From an uncultured archaeon (GTDB taxonomy: Archaea; Asgardarchaeota; Jordiarchaeia; Jordiarchaeales; Jordiarchaeaceae), in assembly GCA_964510585.1 (NCBI GenBank), contig CAZECW010000188.1, forward strand, positions 937 to 32,936: 32,000 bases of DNA, written 5' to 3'. The notes under the pieces are model-generated. The model did not search any database and had not been told where the DNA came from. It worked only from the letters and a program-made list of their open reading frames with translations. Positions 336 through 8,343 of the stretch are shown one piece after another (the first letter of the stretch is position 1; each line of letters opens with the position of its first letter). Made by a program: the position numbers and the translations under genes.

Positions 336-379
336 GTGTGAGTGGATGTGTTTACATCGAAATCTAGGTGGCCTCAAAA

Positions 380-1562
<1,183 letters not shown>

Positions 1563-1582
1563 ATGTGAGGAGTGTTTATTTT

Positions 1583-1999
1583 ATGGAAGAAAAAGTGAGA
1601 CTGGGAATTGTGGTAGCAGAATTTAATTATGATATTACCTATCTGATGCTCCAAAGAGCTCTTGATCATGCTGAGTTTCTGGGCGCCACAGTGGAGAAGG
1701 TGATTAAGGTTCCTGGATCTTTTGATATGCCTCTAGCCATCAAAAGGCTTCTCCAAATGGATAATATTGATGCTGTGGTCACTATAGGCGCCATTCTTAA
1801 GGGGGACACTGACCATGATCAGGTGGTGGCTCAGCATGCGGCGCGGAAAATGATGGATCTCGCCTTAGAGTATAACAAGCCGGTGGCTCTAGGAGTATCG
1901 GGGCCGGGAATGACCAGAATGGAAGCAACGGAAAGAATTGAGGAATACGCAAAGAGAAGCGTTGAAGCTGCTGTAAAAATGGTTCGGCGTTTGAAATAG
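1583..1999 (+). CDS. ribH: 6,7-dimethyl-8-ribityllumazine synthase
   Basis: [35 protein letters not shown] and [14 protein letters not shown] 1583 follows GAGGAG; ATG 1559 is an alternative start. Confidence 0.95.
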
Positions 2000-2037
2000 G
2001 TAATGGTTTTGGTGGTGCCACGTAGAGGCGTACTATT

Positions 2038-2802
2038 ATGATTCAGCTAACTTTAATACAGCTTGACAATTATGGACGATTCACCGAGCTCCTAGGGGCG
2101 GATCGGGAGTCCGATTTACAGATTCTACAATCGGAGCTCTATGCGGATCTCCAAAGGATGTTTGCTCTGAGAAGAGGATTGGTTTTTTATAATCGTTTTG
2201 ATAACATGCTTGCGGTGTCTAATGGCATATCGGTCCAGGAGCATGAGATGATTTTAAGGAGTGTGACTAGAAGGTATCCGGTTTCCATTAGTATGGGCAT
2301 TGGTTCTGCTGAAACGCCTTATGAGGCTCAAGTTCTGGCAACAAAAGTTTTACAAGAGACGGGTAGCGCCCAGTCGGAGACCCGCAAAGCGATTCTGGCG
2401 CAAAAGTCTAATGATAACGGTGGTCAGGAGTATGTTCAGATCGCCCACATAGACATAAATGGCTTCACGTCGAAAGTCACGGATCGGGAATCCGCTTACC
2501 AGAGTACTTATCTTATATATTCTTCTACCTCTATTCTCATGAGAATGTTTGGGGATAAGGGAGCCCTCCTCTTTTTTAATGGGGGGGATAATTTTATTGC
2601 AGTTTGTAATGGTTTGAAGAAGTCTGACTTCAAAGAAATATTTGATAGGTTTGAGACAAGCATGAACCTGAGGCTTAAAGCAGGCATAGGCTTTGGCAAA
2701 AATGCTCTGGACGCTCTGTCAAGGGCGAATATAGGCCTCTCCTTGATTAGGAAGAAGAAGGTAAATGATGTAATATTCCTTAACGAAGAAGAGATGCTCT
2801 AA
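2038..2802 (+). CDS. gch3: GTP cyclohydrolase III
   Basis: IQLDNYGRFTELLG..RESDLQILQ, RFDNMLAVSNG, IAHIDIN and GGDNF match the archaeal GCH III family. Located in the rib operon. Confidence 0.9.
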   Translation: MIQLTLIQLDNYGRFTELLGADRESDLQILQSELYADLQRMFALRRGLVFYNRFDNMLAVSNGISVQEHEMILRSVTRRYPVSISMGIGSAETPYEAQVLATKVLQETGSAQSETRKAILAQKSNDNGGQEYVQIAHIDINGFTSKVTDRESAYQSTYLIYSSTSILMRMFGDKGALLFFNGGDNFIAVCNGLKKSDFKEIFDRFETSMNLRLKAGIGFGKNALDALSRANIGLSLIRKKKVNDVIFLNEEEML

Positions 2803-2805
2803 GCC

Positions 2806-3987
2806 ATGTCGTACGCCATCTACGCTGACTTCTGCCTAGTGGGGAAAGAACTTCAACTACTTGAAGACGTGTACATTACGATTTCAGATGAGGGCAAATT
2901 TGAGAGCGTCTCGAAGGAAGCCCCGAAGTTTAAAGTCTACTCGATTTTTGAGGACTGCCTCATACTTCCCACATTTATAAATGCGCATACCCATGTGGGG
3001 GACTCCTTCGCTAAGGAGATGGGATACCAGTATTCCGTAGAGGAAGTGGTAGAGCCGCCACGGGGACTGAAGCACAGACTTTTGGCAGAGGCTTCCGAGG
3101 AAGAGTTGACTTCTGGAATTCGTAATGCTTGCTTGGAGATGTTATCTTCTGGCACATCCACATTTGCTGATTTTAGGGAGGGAGGACTGAAGGGAATAAA
3201 TATGCTCAGCCAGGTAACAAGTAGTTTTCCAGTTAAAGCCATAAAGCTTGGAAGACCAAACCAAGGAACATTCCTAGAAGAACTGCTTCCCCATGTGGAT
3301 GGTGTAGGATTAAGCTCCACAAACATTTATAGTGACATGGAGCTGAAACAGATTTCGGAAAAATGTAAAAAGGAAAATAAACTAATTGCGGTGCACGCCT
3401 CAGAAACAGTTAAGGAGCGAGAAATTGCATTCGAGAAATGGGGTGTCTCAGACGTTAAGAGAGCCATAGATGTTTTAGGTGCAGACATCTTGGTGCACTT
3501 GACTCACATAGACGAGGAGGACATGAAACTGCTCAAGGGCAGAAGTGTTGTTTGTTGCCCGCGCGCCAACGCTTATTTTGGAGTAGGTTTTCCACCAATA
3601 GAAAATCTTGTGGAGGAGGGAGTAAGCGTTTGTCTTGGGACGGACAACGTTATGGCTAACTCCTTAGACCTTTTTAGAGAAATGGAGTTTTTAGGGAAAA
3701 CACTCCGAGGAAAATATGGTAAAAATGCATTGCACTCCAAAAAAATAATAGAAATGGTTACAGTTAACCCCGCACAATTGTTTAATCTTGATTCGGGTTG
3801 GATAGCGTCTGGGCGAAGTGCAGACTTTATTGTTTTAAATCTGGATGCTCCCAACATTAGACCAGTAAATGACATTTACCACTCTGTGGTTCACAGAGCA
3901 AATTCTGAGAACATTGAATTCGTCTATATTAAGGGAAAAAAGGTTTTCGAGAGAGATTATTTGTTAAAAAGAGGGCTGGTCTTTTGA
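2806..3987 (+). CDS. Metal-dependent amidohydrolase/deaminase (cytosine/guanine/MTA deaminase-like superfamily)
   Basis: Metal ligands NAHTH, HASE (HxxE), HLTH and LGTDN; C-terminal G.IASGRSADFIVL. The family call is firm; the substrate is inferred. Confidence 0.85.
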   Translation: MSYAIYADFCLVGKELQLLEDVYITISDEGKFESVSKEAPKFKVYSIFEDCLILPTFINAHTHVGDSFAKEMGYQYSVEEVVEPPRGLKHRLLAEASEEELTSGIRNACLEMLSSGTSTFADFREGGLKGINMLSQVTSSFPVKAIKLGRPNQGTFLEELLPHVDGVGLSSTNIYSDMELKQISEKCKKENKLIAVHASETVKEREIAFEKWGVSDVKRAIDVLGADILVHLTHIDEEDMKLLKGRSVVCCPRANAYFGVGFPPIENLVEEGVSVCLGTDNVMANSLDLFREMEFLGKTLRGKYGKNALHSKKIIEMVTVNPAQLFNLDSGWIASGRSADFIVLNLDAPNIRPVNDIYHSVVHRANSENIEFVYIKGKKVFERDYLLKRGLVF

Positions 3988-4649
3988 AAAAACCCTATGT
4001 TATTCTAAACTCCGCCATGAGTCTTGACGGAAAAATTGCAACTCGAGGAGGAGACTCCGCATTTTCAGACGAGGAAGACTGGAAGAGAGTACACAAGCTC
4101 AGATCCCAAGTGGACGCCATAATGGTGGGGATAAACACCATTCTCCTGGATGACTCCAAACTCACTTCAAAAAAGGGAAGGAGCCCCATAAGAGTGGTTG
4201 TGGACAGTAAAGCAAGAACACCCCCCAACGCCAGAGTAATCACGGTAAGACCCGAGATAGAAACCATAATCGCAATAACAAGCAGAGCCCCTCCAGAAAA
4301 AATTGCCAACCTGCAAAGAAAAGGAGCAAAAATAATAGTTTGTGGAGACGGGGAAAAGGTAGATCTAGAAATACTCATGGAGAAGCTTTACGAGCGAGGC
4401 GTTAGGAATTTACTGCTTGAAGGAGGAGGAAACTTAAACTGGGGAATGCTAAGCAAGGGACTCGTAGATGAAATCAGAATCGCAATATCTCCAGTAATAG
4501 TGGGAGGCGAAAAAGCCACAACCCTAGTGGAAGGAGAAGGATACGCCAAAGTAAGCGAAGGTGTAAAGCTAGAACAGGTCAACTGTGAACAGGTGGGCAA
4601 ATGCATAGTCCTCACGTACAAAGTTCTGAACACCAGGAGGGAGGAATAA
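3984..4649 (+). CDS. arfC: 2,5-diamino-6-(ribosylamino)-4(3H)-pyrimidinone 5'-phosphate reductase (RibD C-terminal-like, no deaminase domain)
   Basis: KPYVILNSAMSLDGKIA, RVHKLRSQVDAIMVGINTILLDD, RVVVDS and LLLEGGG. TTG start overlaps the upstream TGA. Confidence 0.9.
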   Translation: MKKPYVILNSAMSLDGKIATRGGDSAFSDEEDWKRVHKLRSQVDAIMVGINTILLDDSKLTSKKGRSPIRVVVDSKARTPPNARVITVRPEIETIIAITSRAPPEKIANLQRKGAKIIVCGDGEKVDLEILMEKLYERGVRNLLLEGGGNLNWGMLSKGLVDEIRIAISPVIVGGEKATTLVEGEGYAKVSEGVKLEQVNCEQVGKCIVLTYKVLNTRREE

Positions 4650-5312
4650 TTGAAGCACGTCATATTGCCCATTGGAAGCACAGAACAACATGGACCCCAC
4701 CTACCACTAGGCACCGACACCTATATCGCAAAAAGAATATCTGAGGCCCTAGCCACAGAGCTAAAAATTGACCTAGTGCCCACGCTGAGTTACGGGGTAT
4801 CAGGAGAACACACAGGTTTCCCCGGAACAATTGGCATCCAACCCGAAACACTGTTGAAAACAGTGGAGGACATCAGTAAAAGTCTATTAAAATGCTACCA
4901 AAAGGTCATAATTGTCAACACCCATGGAGGAAACACTCCAACACTCCAAAAATTAAAAAACGAGAAAATAATCATAGTCGACCTATTTCACGCCCTAAAA
5001 GGGATGCTGGAAAACCTGAGAGAAACAGATATGGGAGGAATCTGCCACGCATGTGAAGCGGAAACCTCCCTCATGCTATACCTCAAACCCGACCTAGTAA
5101 AAAAGGAAAAAATCACCGAGGACATAGTTAAATACGTTCCCCAACTTGACCCACAATCAGAATCACCCCTCCCAAATGGCTGGAAAACCATAAACTACTC
5201 CCAATCAGGAGTAATTGGAGACCCCACAAAAGCCACACCAGAGAAGGGAAAGAAAATATTTGACGCTCTAATCAGAAAAATGTCAGAAAAATTAGAAACT
5301 CTCCTAACTTGA
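4650..5312 (+). CDS. arfB: Creatininase-family protein, probable 2-amino-5-formylamino-6-ribosylaminopyrimidinone 5'-phosphate deformylase
   Basis: ILPIGSTEQHGPHLPLGTD, GVSGEH, VNTHGGN, HACEAETS and GVIGDP. Sits in an operon with gch3, whose product ArfB deformylates. Confidence 0.85.
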   Translation: MKHVILPIGSTEQHGPHLPLGTDTYIAKRISEALATELKIDLVPTLSYGVSGEHTGFPGTIGIQPETLLKTVEDISKSLLKCYQKVIIVNTHGGNTPTLQKLKNEKIIIVDLFHALKGMLENLRETDMGGICHACEAETSLMLYLKPDLVKKEKITEDIVKYVPQLDPQSESPLPNGWKTINYSQSGVIGDPTKATPEKGKKIFDALIRKMSEKLETLLT

Positions 5313-5386
5313 GTAAAAAAGATAGTACAGAAAGCCAAGTAGAGCTTAAAAAACCAAAAGGGGAAAATAAGGCACTCCACCTCTAT

Positions 5387-5920
5387 TTATGTGCGATATT
5401 TTGGAGTACTAAGAATCTTTTCCGCCAGTTTGTAAAAAGCCATTATCACGTTTTTACCAGTCTTGGCCGAGGACTCCAAATAATCAACCCCAATACTCCT
5501 AGCATAATCAACAGCCTTCTCCCTAGGCACCCTGCGAAAAACAGCCAAATCGTACTTATTTCCCACAAGAATCAAAGGAACCTCTTTATTCAAACTAGAC
5601 CTGATCTGTCCAAGCCAATCTCCCAAACTCTCAAAGCTTTCCTCGCTGGTAATGTCGAAAACCAGCATAGCACCGTCAGAACCCCTATAAAGAATATTCT
5701 CCCCAAAACGGAACTTCTCCTGACCCCCAATTTCAAAAATACTCAAACTAACACGCTTACCCTCAATGTCCAGCTCCCTATTCGATATGCGAGTAAAGTC
5801 CGCTCCCTTGTAACCCTCAATAAAAACCCCATGAACAAACCTACGAGTGATACTCGTTTTACCAACCCCAGTGTCACCAGCCAAAACCACTTTGAGCATT
5901 AACTCCTTACCAGACACCAC
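5387..5920 (-). CDS. Rab-like small GTPase with degenerate switch motifs
   Basis: G1 GDTGVGKTS, G4 GNKYD and G5 SSAK are intact. G2 reads YKGADF with no Thr, and G3 reads EIGGQ. No C-terminal Cys. Confidence 0.88.
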   Translation of the reverse strand: MVSGKELMLKVVLAGDTGVGKTSITRRFVHGVFIEGYKGADFTRISNRELDIEGKRVSLSIFEIGGQEKFRFGENILYRGSDGAMLVFDITSEESFESLGDWLGQIRSSLNKEVPLILVGNKYDLAVFRRVPREKAVDYARSIGVDYLESSAKTGKNVIMAFYKLAEKILSTPKYRT

Positions 5921-6113
5921 TCAAAACAACCCCTTACCGAACCTTTTTACAACCCACAACAACAAACCCCAACGAAGCAAATCCTGCATAATAAAAGTCG
6001 AATCACCAAATAAAGATTAACCACAAACTAAAGAAAGCACCCTTCACGCTTAATAAGCAGAGACGTTAAAAATATGAGGAGGGAGCAAAATGCAACAAAA
6101 ACCCTGAATAGAA

Positions 6114-6641
6114 TTAGAGACCCTTACTTTGAATAATGCTCTTAGCCAGCGCCAAAAAGGCAGCCTCTACATTATCTCCTTCCTTGGCCGAGGTCTCAAA
6201 GAATGGCGCACCCAAACTCTTCGCGTAATCTTCTCCCTCGCTCCTCTTAACCTCCCTAAGATTCTTCAAATCACACTTGTTACCAACAACCACCACCGCT
6301 GCAACATCATTTGTATTATTCATCATTTCAGTTCTCCAATTTTCAAGATTTTCTAAAGTTGTCCTACGAGTAACATCATAGACCAAAAGTGCACCAACCG
6401 CACCCAAATAGAACCCTGACCTAACATGTTTAAAGTGGGGCTGCCCAGCCAAGTCCCAAATAATAAGTTTAACAGAAGTACCCTCAACACTAAGGCTCTT
6501 GGCGAAAATATTTGTTCCTAGAGTCATTTTGTAATCTTTCTGAAATTTTCCAGTAATGAATTTTTCAATTAAGCTTGTTTTACCCACAGCTCCGTCGCCT
6601 GCCAGAATTACTTTGTACATTAGTTCTTTGGGTTTGGACAT
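6114..6641 (-). CDS. Rab-like small GTPase (canonical motifs)
   Basis: G1 GDGAVGKTS, G2 YKMTLG, G3 WDLAGQ, G4 GNKCD, G5 ETSAK. No C-terminal prenylation cysteines. Confidence 0.93.
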   Translation of the reverse strand: MSKPKELMYKVILAGDGAVGKTSLIEKFITGKFQKDYKMTLGTNIFAKSLSVEGTSVKLIIWDLAGQPHFKHVRSGFYLGAVGALLVYDVTRRTTLENLENWRTEMMNNTNDVAAVVVVGNKCDLKNLREVKRSEGEDYAKSLGAPFFETSAKEGDNVEAAFLALAKSIIQSKGL

Positions 6642-7337: not shown

Positions 7338-7691
7338 ATGGAAGAGTTGTTGGATGAAGTTCTGGAGCATATTGGTAAGGCCAAGTCTGCTGAAGATGGC
7401 GAGGGTTTAAAGCTTGAGGCTTGGATGGCTCGAGCTAGTTTGGAGCTTTTTCTCATTAAGTTGGTTCTGCTGCATGGTTTGGAGGAGAGGGAACCGCCTT
7501 CTGGGCCTAGTGTGAAGAGGAAGGAGCAGAATAGGGATTTGAAGCTTTTGGGTTTGGCTGAGGAAAAGGTTAGGGAGGCTCAGCGGGCTTTTGTTAGTGG
7601 GGATTATTTTTTGACTTATGAATGTGTTTGGTATGCTAAGAATGCTTTAACTAAGATTGTAACTTCGGATTCTAAGGTTTCGGGTGGGTAA
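7338..7691 (+). CDS. Hypothetical alpha-helical protein
   Basis: 117-aa ORF with ATG preceded by GAGGTGA, directly upstream of DUF99. Family not recognised. Confidence 0.7.
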   Translation: MEELLDEVLEHIGKAKSAEDGEGLKLEAWMARASLELFLIKLVLLHGLEEREPPSGPSVKRKEQNRDLKLLGLAEEKVREAQRAFVSGDYFLTYECVWYAKNALTKIVTSDSKVSGG

Positions 7692-7773
7692 ACCGAGTTT
7701 TTGTGGCAGCTTCTGTGGAGTGGTGAAAGGTTTATTTTTGTTTCTTGCTTCTTTTGTTTTTGGAGTTGATTTT

Positions 7774-8343
7774 TTGAAGACTGGTGTTAGGGTTTTGGGT
7801 GTGGCAGAGAGTTTTGTTAAGGGTGCTAGTAAGCGTTCGGTTCTTGCGGGTGTGGTTATGAGGGGTGATCTTCAGATTGATGGCTTCGCCTTCTCGACAG
7901 TTACTGTGGGAGGATTGGACGCAACTGAGGGCGTGCTTAAGCTCTACCGAGTTCTTGATAGAAGTGATATTAGGTTTCTGTTTTTGAATGGTTGTATCAT
8001 TAGTTGGTTTAACATTGTGGATTTGAATCGGGTATATGGCGAGTTGAGTATCCCTTTGGTATGTATAACTTATGAGGAGTCTGCAGGGTTAGAGAAATAC
8101 TTTAAGGAGTACTTTTCGGATTGGGAGGAGAGACTGAAGATTTATAGTAGACTGGGAGATAGGGAGCCCCTTAGGCTTAATACGGGTTATGAGATTTTTG
8201 TGCGTTACTTGGGACTGAGCAGGGAGGAGGCGGTAAGGGTTTTGAACAAGTTTACTCTTCAGGGCTCTGTTCCTGAACCCTTAAAAACAGCTCGCCTGCT
8301 GTCTAGGGCGATTATAAGAAGTGGGATTGCAAATTTAGATTAG
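7774..8343 (+). CDS. DUF99 / UPF0215 family protein (endonuclease V-like fold)
   Basis: RVLGVAESF, LAGVVMRGDLQIDG, TVGGLDAT, NGCIISWFNIVDL and VPEPLKTARL. The ORF opens at GTG 7684; TTG 7774 after GGAGTTGAT fits the family N-terminus better. Confidence 0.85.
   Translation: MKTGVRVLGVAESFVKGASKRSVLAGVVMRGDLQIDGFAFSTVTVGGLDATEGVLKLYRVLDRSDIRFLFLNGCIISWFNIVDLNRVYGELSIPLVCITYEESAGLEKYFKEYFSDWEERLKIYSRLGDREPLRLNTGYEIFVRYLGLSREEAVRVLNKFTLQGSVPEPLKTARLLSRAIIRSGIANLD

What the first reader, a model, noticed from the sequence alone, without database searches (positions are those of the whole stretch)
2806..3987. Amidohydrolase embedded in the rib operon is a candidate for the archaeal pyrimidine deaminase step
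Seen: the gene lies between gch3 and arfC with 3-nt spacing and a 4-nt overlap, and has deaminase-type ligands (HxH, HxxE, H, D). Known: the Gch3-ArfB-ArfC route yields the 2,5-diamino ribitylamino pyrimidinone phosphate, which must be deaminated before RibH. The ArfC here has no RibD deaminase domain, and this step is poorly characterised in archaea. Inference: this protein performs it. Comparative genomics may already have proposed this link for other archaea.
Basis: partly seen in the sequence, partly recalled or inferred. Interest (0 to 1): 0.6.

Follow-up and report, generated by a model that had tools for sequence, protein, structure and literature searches.

The report
Predicted archaeal riboflavin pyrimidine deaminase gene
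The gene between arfA and arfC in this Asgard archaeon's vitamin B2 operon is a metal-dependent deaminase-type enzyme that very probably performs the never-assayed deamination step of archaeal riboflavin/F420 precursor synthesis, but its family (MJ0699, 'PyrD') was already proposed for that step in 2010 and 2017, so this is a well-supported rediscovery.

Summary
Window 2806-3987(+) encodes a 393-aa amidohydrolase. It starts 3 nt after the arfA stop and overlaps the arfC start by 4 nt (TTGA). It carries H61xH63, H197xxE200, H231 and D280. It lies in a seven-gene operon: ribB-ribC-ribH-arfA-X-arfC-creatininase-type formamidase.

- The protein passes the curated cut-off of NCBIfam NF005552 (318.7 bits; cut-off 294).
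- MJ0699 (UniProt Q58110) scores 589 bits in the same family and is 37% identical to the window protein.
- MJ0699 and HVO_2483 are the published, untested 'PyrD' candidate for the archaeal pyrimidine deaminase (Osterman 2010, cited in Rodionova 2017; Pfeiffer 2021).
- A Methanocaldococcus lauensis orthologue is already annotated 'Pyrimidine deaminase archaeal predicted'.

My own comparative evidence:
- arfC lies directly downstream in 53 of 80 loci from several archaeal phyla.
- In a sample of 101 Asgard genomes the family occurs in 42, always directly upstream of arfC, and in the same taxonomic families as arfC.
- All 121 Methanobacteriota genomes sampled have a match over the family cut-off.
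- This genome has no cytidine-deaminase-type domain and no RibA.
- Metagenome contigs carry a natural creatininase-amidohydrolase fusion.

I found no biochemical test of the family. This scan has reported the same family many times on other genomes.

The parts
368..1096 (+). [quoted passage not shown]
   Evidence: PF00926 at 176 bits; TIGR00506 at 229.8 bits, over its cut-off of 177
1065..1562 (+). ribC, archaeal pentameric-type riboflavin synthase
   Evidence: TIGR01506 ribC_arch at 223 bits, over its cut-off of 100.6
1493..1999 (+). ribH, lumazine synthase. The domain starts at residue 35 of this ORF, so the real start is probably further downstream.
   Evidence: TIGR00114 at 158 bits, over its cut-off of 84.6
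2038..2802 (+). arfA, GTP cyclohydrolase III/IIa
   Evidence: PF05165 at 281.6 bits; NF002587 at 294.6 bits, just under its cut-off of 306
2806..3987 (+). The finding: a COG0402-type amidohydrolase of the MJ0699 / NF005552 family, the predicted 2,5-diamino-6-ribitylamino-4(3H)-pyrimidinone 5'-phosphate deaminase. Catalytic set: H61, H63, H197, E200, H231, D280.
   Evidence: NF005552 at 318.7 bits, over its cut-off of 294. 37% identical to MJ0699, E 2e-58. AF2 model pLDDT 90.5; the closest folds are COG0402 deaminases. Synteny and co-occurrence.
3984..4649 (+). arfC, archaeal 2,5-diamino-6-ribosylamino-pyrimidinone 5'-phosphate reductase; reductase domain only
   Evidence: TIGR01508 at 238 bits, over its cut-off of 186; PF01872 only
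4650..5312 (+). Creatininase-family protein, a probable AFRPP formamide hydrolase (ArfB/BrbF-like). Last gene of the operon; its TTG start directly follows the arfC stop.
   Evidence: PF02633 at 214.6 bits. Only 32.7 bits against the ArfB model NF033501, whose cut-off is 180. Creatininase-family enzymes are the proven deformylases of this pathway (PMC9478397).

Best explanation
The gene encodes the archaeal riboflavin/FO-pathway pyrimidine deaminase. It is a mononuclear metal-dependent (Zn or Fe) amidohydrolase of the COG0402 deaminase type. The proposed pathway is as follows. ArfA opens GTP, and the creatininase-type enzyme removes the formyl group. ArfC then reduces the ribosyl side chain to ribityl. 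This enzyme then replaces the 2-amino group of 2,5-diamino-6-ribitylamino-4(3H)-pyrimidinone 5'-phosphate with a carbonyl oxygen and releases ammonia, giving 5-amino-6-ribitylaminouracil 5'-phosphate. After dephosphorylation the product goes to RibH/RibC for riboflavin and to CofG/CofH for FO/F420. The proposed catalysis follows the known COG0402 mechanism. H61, H63, H197 and D280 hold the metal-bound water. H231 and D280 help deprotonate it. E200 shuttles the proton to the ring nitrogen and the leaving amine. Shown here: the gene, its catalytic residues, the fold, family membership, synteny and co-occurrence. Inferred: the substrate, the order relative to ArfC, the metal, and the role of the family-specific residues (D66, K89, D122-F-R-E125, R150, R253) in binding the 5-amino, ribityl and phosphate parts.
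For: 1. Operon logic. Seven tightly packed genes cover every step from GTP and ribulose-5-P to riboflavin except the deaminase and the phosphatase. This gene is the only one without an assigned step.
2. Chemistry. The deaminase signature HxH / HxxE / H / D is complete and 100% conserved in 139 family representatives. The AF2 model (pLDDT 90.5, pTM 0.91) matches only COG0402 deaminases and dechlorinases at the top. These include MTA/SAH/adenosine, isocytosine and guanine deaminases, AtzA/TrzN and HutF (TMq 0.78-0.85, E down to 5e-29). Several of these act on the same 2-amino-4-oxopyrimidine moiety.
3. Synteny. arfC lies directly downstream in 53 of 80 loci, and ribB, ribH and arfA lie upstream in 35-38 of them. 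The loci come from Asgard, Bathyarchaeia and Nitrososphaerota.
4. Co-occurrence. In 101 Asgard genomes the family is in 42 and arfC in 45. The per-family pattern is the same, with small gaps in two families (f9 17/19 against 18/19; f18 2/5 against 4/5). All 42 are adjacent, same strand, amidohydrolase first. In Methanobacteriota, all 121 genomes sampled have a match over the family cut-off.
5. Pathway gap. This 96%-complete genome has no PF00383 (cytidine/RibD-type deaminase) match and no GTP cyclohydrolase II. It does have cofH with a weaker CofH-like (possibly cofG) match beside it, which need the product.
6. Other roles are covered. A separate DadD/MTA-SAH-deaminase-like paralogue, 25% identical and lacking the family signature, exists elsewhere. 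So do adenine deaminase, dihydroorotase, NagA and hydantoinase.
7. Natural fusion. A creatininase-family domain is fused to an NF005552-type domain in one ORF inside long contigs, in at least two JGI samples.
8. Published candidate. The window protein belongs to the same curated family as MJ0699. SEED-derived annotation calls a Methanocaldococcus orthologue 'Pyrimidine deaminase archaeal predicted'.
Against: No member of the family has been assayed, knocked out or crystallised as far as I could find. The nearest solved chain is only 23% identical. In the 23 or so Methanobacteriaceae-type loci among the 80, the gene is not within 7 kb of any rib gene, so there the support is presence only. Three Asgard genomes have arfC without a hit at E<=1e-50. 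Context cannot tell whether the substrate is the ribityl form (after ArfC) or the ribosyl form (before ArfC). H. volcanii and M. acetivorans also carry cytidine-deaminase-family proteins, so an alternative deaminase is not excluded in every archaeon.
Confidence: 0.8

Rival explanations
1. It is a pathway deaminase, but it acts in the bacterial order. It deaminates the ribosyl intermediate (2,5-diamino-6-ribosylamino-pyrimidinone 5'-phosphate, EC 3.5.4.26 chemistry) straight after deformylation, and ArfC then reduces the uracil form.
For: The gene order is arfA, amidohydrolase, arfC. The natural fusion joins the deformylase-type domain to the amidohydrolase, not to the reductase. That would suit consecutive steps.
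Against: Published work on M. jannaschii ArfC (MJ0671) places reduction before deamination, the eukaryotic route. This is cited in PMC5397151 and in the title of Graupner et al. 2002. Gene order and fusions are weak guides to reaction order.
Confidence: 0.1
2. It is a general nucleobase or nucleoside deaminase (MTA/SAH/5'-deoxyadenosine, guanine, pterin or similar) or a dechlorinase-like hydrolase that merely sits in the rib operon.
For: Automatic names are 'chlorohydrolase', 'cytosine/adenosine deaminase-related hydrolase' and 'MTA/SAH deaminase'. The closest solved structures are MTA/SAH/adenosine deaminases.
Against: All those named families score 136 bits or less, far below their cut-offs of 351-779. 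A distinct DadD-like paralogue exists in this genome and in Methanobacteriota. Adjacency to arfC is conserved across phyla, and the phyletic pattern in Asgard genomes closely matches that of arfC. None of the 10 bacterial control genomes has a hit at E<=1e-50, whereas all 4 archaeal controls do.
Confidence: 0.05
3. It is an alternative formamide hydrolase, an ArfB substitute that deformylates the ArfA product, or it performs another unassigned step such as dephosphorylation.
For: It directly follows arfA. Amidohydrolase-superfamily enzymes can hydrolyse amides. Many Nitrososphaerota operons (ribB-ribH-arfA-X-arfC) have no creatininase gene within 7 kb.
Against: The same operon here already has a creatininase-family gene, the family of both proven deformylases, ArfB and BrbF. 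In some organisms the two domains are fused in one protein, so they are not alternatives. Nitrosopumilus and Methanobacterium have creatininase-family genes elsewhere. The HxxE/His/Asp set is the COG0402 deaminase signature. No phosphatase chemistry is known for this subgroup.
Confidence: 0.03

Closest known systems
MJ0699 (UniProt Q58110) / HVO_2483 family = NCBIfam NF005552 (PRK07213 'chlorohydrolase') = SEED role 'Pyrimidine deaminase archaeal predicted' = 'PyrD' of Rodionova et al. 2017
   Same: Same curated family: window protein 318.7 bits, MJ0699 589 bits, cut-off 294. The two are 37% identical, share the catalytic and signature residues, and show the same clustering with riboflavin genes that prompted the published prediction.
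   Different: A new lineage (Asgard, Jordarchaeia/Freyarchaeia). Here the gene sits in an unusually complete seven-gene operon that also holds the deformylase candidate. In M. jannaschii-type methanogens the genes are scattered. The family's function is a prediction, not a demonstrated activity.
COG0402 amidohydrolase-superfamily deaminases: TM0936 and Pa3170-type MTA/SAH/adenosine deaminases (1p1m, 4gbd, 4dyk), guanine deaminase (2uz9, 6ohb), isocytosine deaminase Vcz (7ww2), 8-oxoguanine deaminase
   Same: Same fold (TMq 0.78-0.85) and the same HxH / HxxE / His / Asp catalytic set. Guanine, isocytosine and 8-oxoguanine deaminases remove the 2-amino group of a 2-amino-4-oxopyrimidine ring, the same chemistry proposed here.
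   Different: Only 15-23% identical in the fold comparison. It is shorter (393 aa against about 405-475). It has its own invariant motifs (HxHxxD, GxKH, DFRE, R150, CxR, GTDN, E292). None of those families' models comes near its cut-off.
RibD N-terminal domain / fungal Rib2 / plant PyrD: the known riboflavin pyrimidine deaminases (cytidine deaminase fold)
   Same: Same proposed reaction type. For Rib2 the proposed substrate (the ribityl form) and pathway position are also the same.
   Different: Unrelated fold and ancestry. No PF00383 domain occurs in this protein or anywhere in this genome. If the prediction holds, this is a non-orthologous displacement.

Membership tests
NCBIfam NF005552 / MJ0699 'PyrD' candidate family | Whole-protein score over the curated equivalog cut-off, with a full-length match | tested here: met
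   318.7 bits against a cut-off of 294; residues 10-377 match profile positions 9-379 of 382. The next family scores 136 bits against a cut-off of 617.
NCBIfam NF005552 / MJ0699 'PyrD' candidate family | MJ0699 itself is in this family and is homologous to the window protein | tested here: met
   P0420 is UniRef100_Q58110, 'Uncharacterized protein MJ0699'. It scores 589 bits on NF005552 and is 37% identical to the window protein, E 2e-58.
NCBIfam NF005552 / MJ0699 'PyrD' candidate family | One orthologue per genome, distinct from the DadD-like paralogue | tested here: met
   In the own genome the one hit is at 318 bits and the next at 37 bits. In Methanobacteriota every genome sampled has a hit over the cut-off, and the listed paralogue hits score about 110-130 bits.
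NCBIfam NF005552 / MJ0699 'PyrD' candidate family | Chromosomal clustering and co-occurrence with riboflavin genes, the basis of the published prediction | tested here: met
   53 of 80 loci have arfC adjacent. All 42 Asgard genomes that carry the family have it adjacent to arfC, and the family-level distribution is nearly identical to that of arfC.
NCBIfam NF005552 / MJ0699 'PyrD' candidate family | Pyrimidine deaminase activity on the riboflavin intermediate | not testable with these tools
COG0402-type (subtype III) amidohydrolase deaminases | Distorted (beta/alpha)8 barrel with an adjoining beta-sandwich | tested here: met
   AF2 model pLDDT 90.5. Foldseek top hits are all of this group, TMq up to 0.85, E 5e-29.
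COG0402-type (subtype III) amidohydrolase deaminases | Metal ligands HxH (beta1), His (beta5) and Asp (beta8), plus catalytic Glu of HxxE and His (beta6) | tested here: met
   H61, H63, H197, E200, H231 and D280 are each 100% conserved in 139 members.
RibD / Rib2 cytidine-deaminase-fold pyrimidine deaminases | dCMP_cyt_deam_1 (PF00383) domain with a zinc-binding H/CxE...PCxxC motif | tested here: not met
   No PF00383 match in the protein or in the whole genome. It is not a member; at most it is a functional analogue.
ArfB / BrbF creatininase-family formamide hydrolases | Creatininase (PF02633) domain | tested here: not met
   The protein has only Amidohydro_1/3 domains. The PF02633 protein is the separate gene at 4650-5312.

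The most novel reading that the evidence does not exclude
The natural creatininase-amidohydrolase fusion, and the gene order arfA, amidohydrolase, arfC, could mean that deformylase and deaminase work as a physical pair. In that case at least some archaea would deaminate the unstable ribosyl intermediate before reduction, which is the bacterial order carried out by a non-homologous enzyme. The accepted 'reduction first' order for archaea would then not be universal.
Probability: 0.12. Interest if true: 0.5.

Novelty: new member of a known kind. Interest (0 to 1): 0.3.

Why it matters
The pyrimidine deaminase is one of the last enzymes of archaeal riboflavin and F420 (FO) precursor synthesis without an experimentally proven gene. 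Pfeiffer et al. 2021 count three such gaps for haloarchaea: this deaminase, ArfB and the phosphatase. If the prediction is proven, this family would be a clear case of non-orthologous displacement, with an amidohydrolase-barrel enzyme replacing the cytidine-deaminase-fold RibD/Rib2 domain. It would also correct thousands of 'chlorohydrolase' and 'MTA/SAH deaminase' annotations. The idea is published and already used by SEED, so this window adds support but no new hypothesis. The added support is a complete operon in an Asgard lineage, strict adjacency to arfC and matching distribution in Asgard genomes, presence in every Methanobacteriota genome sampled, and a fusion with the deformylase-type domain.

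Tried and rejected
- Fused forms longer than 689 aa: none found, which the tool itself rates as weak evidence.
- Reaching M. jannaschii through the 'phylum' of a Methanobacterium genome returned Methanobacteria-type sequences only. A first look-up of ten 50%-cluster representatives gave only metagenome proteins and one MAG protein (archaeon HR06), none from a named isolate. The link was finally made through the Methanotorris igneus representative.
- Literature searches for an assay ('arfD', 'ribitylamino + deaminase + archaeal + amidohydrolase', 'chlorohydrolase + riboflavin + archaea') found nothing relevant. The White-lab DadD paper could not be opened by DOI. The supplements of Rodionova 2017 are not held.
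I therefore could not measure which family-specific residues line the pocket, and their proposed roles are inference only.
- The ORF at 5309-5902(+) was considered as an eighth operon gene and rejected. It has no family match and is almost wholly overlapped by a Ras-family gene on the other strand.

Full report
**What is in the window.** The plus strand from 368 to 5312 carries seven co-directional ORFs with gaps of 38 nt or less, or small overlaps.
- ribB, 368-1096: TIGR00506, 229.8 bits.
- Archaeal riboflavin synthase ribC, 1065-1562: TIGR01506, 223 bits.
- Lumazine synthase ribH, 1493-1999: TIGR00114, 158 bits.
- GTP cyclohydrolase III arfA, 2038-2802: PF05165, 281.6 bits.
- The amidohydrolase of the finding, 2806-3987.
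- The archaeal pyrimidine reductase arfC, 3984-4649: TIGR01508, 238 bits; RibD_C domain only.
- A creatininase-family protein, 4650-5312: PF02633, 214.6 bits.

The arfA stop TAA is followed by gcc and then the ATG at 2806. The amidohydrolase stop overlaps the arfC start as TTGA. Close homologues are from Candidatus Jordarchaeia/Freyarchaeia, so the organism is an Asgard archaeon.

**The protein.** It is 393 aa long and matches Amidohydro_1 over its full length (150 bits). Its best NCBIfam match is the equivalog NF005552 (PRK07213 'chlorohydrolase') at 318.7 bits, over the curated cut-off of 294. All named deaminase families (5'-deoxyadenosine, MTA/SAH, guanine and 8-oxoguanine deaminases, HutF, aminofutalosine deaminase, SsnA) score 136 bits or less, against cut-offs of 320-779.

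The residues H61-x-H63, H197-x-x-E200, H231 and D280 are present. They are 100% conserved in an alignment of 139 diverse family representatives. So are D66 and N281. Positions N59, K89, D122-F-R-E125, R150, C251, R253 and E292 are 92-97% conserved.

An AlphaFold2 model built on 12 homologues is confident (mean pLDDT 90.5, pTM 0.91). It places these residues at the ends of strands, as expected for beta1, beta5, beta6 and beta8 of an amidohydrolase barrel. Foldseek's top PDB matches are all COG0402 deaminases, dechlorinases or iminohydrolases: MTA/SAH/adenosine deaminases, TM0936, isocytosine deaminase, AtzA/TrzN, guanine deaminases and HutF. TMq is 0.78-0.85 and identity is only 15-23%. No close relative has a solved structure.

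**Is it the published candidate?** Rodionova et al. 2017 (PMC5397151) make three relevant statements. [quoted passage not shown] The prediction 'remains to be tested'. Pfeiffer et al. 2021 (PMC8305020) name the proteins, HVO_2483 and MJ0699 (Q58110), and again say experimental confirmation is required.

I linked the window protein to these names directly, in four steps.
- A search with a Methanothermobacter orthologue found a Methanotorris igneus representative.
- Its relatives include a cluster with UniRef100_Q58110, 'Uncharacterized protein MJ0699' (also 'atrazine chlorohydrolase isolog', AAB98692.1).
- A sister cluster holds a Methanocaldococcus lauensis protein annotated 'Pyrimidine deaminase archaeal predicted'.
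- MJ0699 scores 589 bits on NF005552 and is 37% identical to the window protein, E 2e-58.

At E<=1e-50 the family model hits all four archaeal control genomes (M. jannaschii, H. volcanii, S. acidocaldarius, M. acetivorans) and none of the ten bacterial ones. A 2026 review of riboflavin enzymology mentions no archaeal deaminase enzyme. My other searches found no assay.

**Independent comparative evidence.**
- Synteny. In 80 loci recovered from one-genome-per-species contigs, arfC lies directly downstream of the amidohydrolase in 53. Upstream are arfA in 38, ribH in 37 and ribB in 35. These loci come from Asgard lineages, Bathyarchaeia and Nitrososphaerota. In Methanobacteriaceae the gene is unlinked to rib genes.
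- Asgard co-occurrence. In an evenly drawn sample of 101 Asgard genomes at least 85% complete, the family is found in 42 and arfC in 45. The per-family pattern is almost the same. Both are present in f1, f2, f4, f5, f9, f15 and f18, and neither is found in the other 16 families. The counts differ only in f9 (17/19 against 18/19) and f18 (2/5 against 4/5). In all 42 genomes the two genes are neighbours on the same strand, amidohydrolase first. Related genomes are not independent, so I give no statistic.
- Methanobacteriota. All 121 genomes sampled have a match over the cut-off, and the listed weaker paralogue hits score about 110-130 bits.

**The pathway gap in this genome (96% complete).**
- No PF00383 cytidine/RibD-type deaminase domain.
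- No GTP cyclohydrolase II.
- A cofH over its cut-off, with a weaker CofH-like (possibly cofG) match beside it. The product, 5-amino-6-ribitylaminouracil, is therefore needed for both riboflavin and FO/F420, and only the ArfA route can supply it.
- The genome's other amidohydrolases are a DadD/MTA-SAH-deaminase-like paralogue, adenine deaminase, dihydroorotase, NagA and a hydantoinase. The DadD-like paralogue is 25% identical and lacks the HxHxxD, DFRE, R150 and GTDN signature.

**The deformylase rival.** Both proven AFRPP formamidases, archaeal ArfB and bacterial BrbF, are creatininase-family enzymes. This operon has its own creatininase-family gene. Nitrosopumilus and Methanobacterium genomes have one elsewhere.

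One 50%-cluster representative (P0161) is a natural fusion of a creatininase-family domain to an NF005552-type domain. The first domain is 31% identical to the window's creatininase-family protein (E 5e-35). The second scores 232 bits on NF005552, with the next family at 60 bits. The ORF lies inside contigs of 105 kb and 45 kb from at least two JGI samples. It extends upstream of the called start, so the first domain is complete. Two domains in one protein are not alternatives for the same step. The fusion supports a shared pathway.

**Verdict.** The reading 'this is the archaeal pyrimidine deaminase' is the best-supported explanation; I give it about 0.8, with a further 0.1 for the same enzyme acting before ArfC. 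The hypothesis is 15 years old and is embedded in SEED annotation. Earlier follow-ups in this scan reached the same conclusion on many other genomes (37 notes in at least 34 genomes). I re-tested the key link (MJ0699 = NF005552) myself. The activity, substrate form, metal and residue roles remain inferred. The decisive experiment is a straightforward coupled enzyme assay.

Noticed in passing
window 4650-5312 (+): The creatininase-family gene that closes the rib operon scores only 32.7 bits on the ArfB equivalog NF033501 (cut-off 180) but 161 bits on MftE and 118 bits on creatininase models. It is probably a divergent AFRPP formamidase, nearer to the bacterial BrbF type than to MJ0116-type ArfB. 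It is adjacent in only 5 of the 80 related loci.
   Followed up: partly
L133:5929-7629 (+); also L134:241-1941: A natural single-ORF fusion of a creatininase-family domain and an MJ0699-family amidohydrolase domain. It sits on metagenome contigs of about 58% GC (JGI 3300009107 and 3300007759), with no other rib genes within 6 kb. The gene caller's start at 6001 truncates the first domain; an upstream ATG completes it.
   Followed up: partly
window 5309-5902 (+) versus 5387-5920 (-) and 6114-6641 (-): The 197-aa plus-strand ORF after the operon has no family match and is almost fully overlapped by a minus-strand Ras-family GTPase gene (PF00071, 143 bits). That gene is in tandem with a second Ras-family gene (177 bits). 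The plus-strand ORF is probably not a gene.
   Followed up: partly
window 1493-1999 (+): The longest ribH ORF starts at a GTG that overlaps ribC by 70 nt, but the lumazine synthase domain begins at residue 35. The real start is probably about 30 codons downstream.
   Followed up: no
G169:C109:44408-45040 (same genus as the window): The arfC match next to the amidohydrolase in one same-genus genome contains two in-frame stops (1 TGA, 1 TAG). This is either a decaying gene or an assembly error.
   Followed up: no
G000:C187:81530-83730 (own genome, another contig): cofH (508 bits, over its cut-off) has a weaker CofH-like match, possibly cofG, beside it. This Jordarchaeia genome therefore appears able to make the FO chromophore of F420, and it shares the deaminase product with riboflavin synthesis.
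   Followed up: partly
window 7684-8343 (+): An endonuclease dU (PF01949, 196 bits) gene lies downstream of the GTPase pair. It is unrelated to the finding.
   Followed up: no
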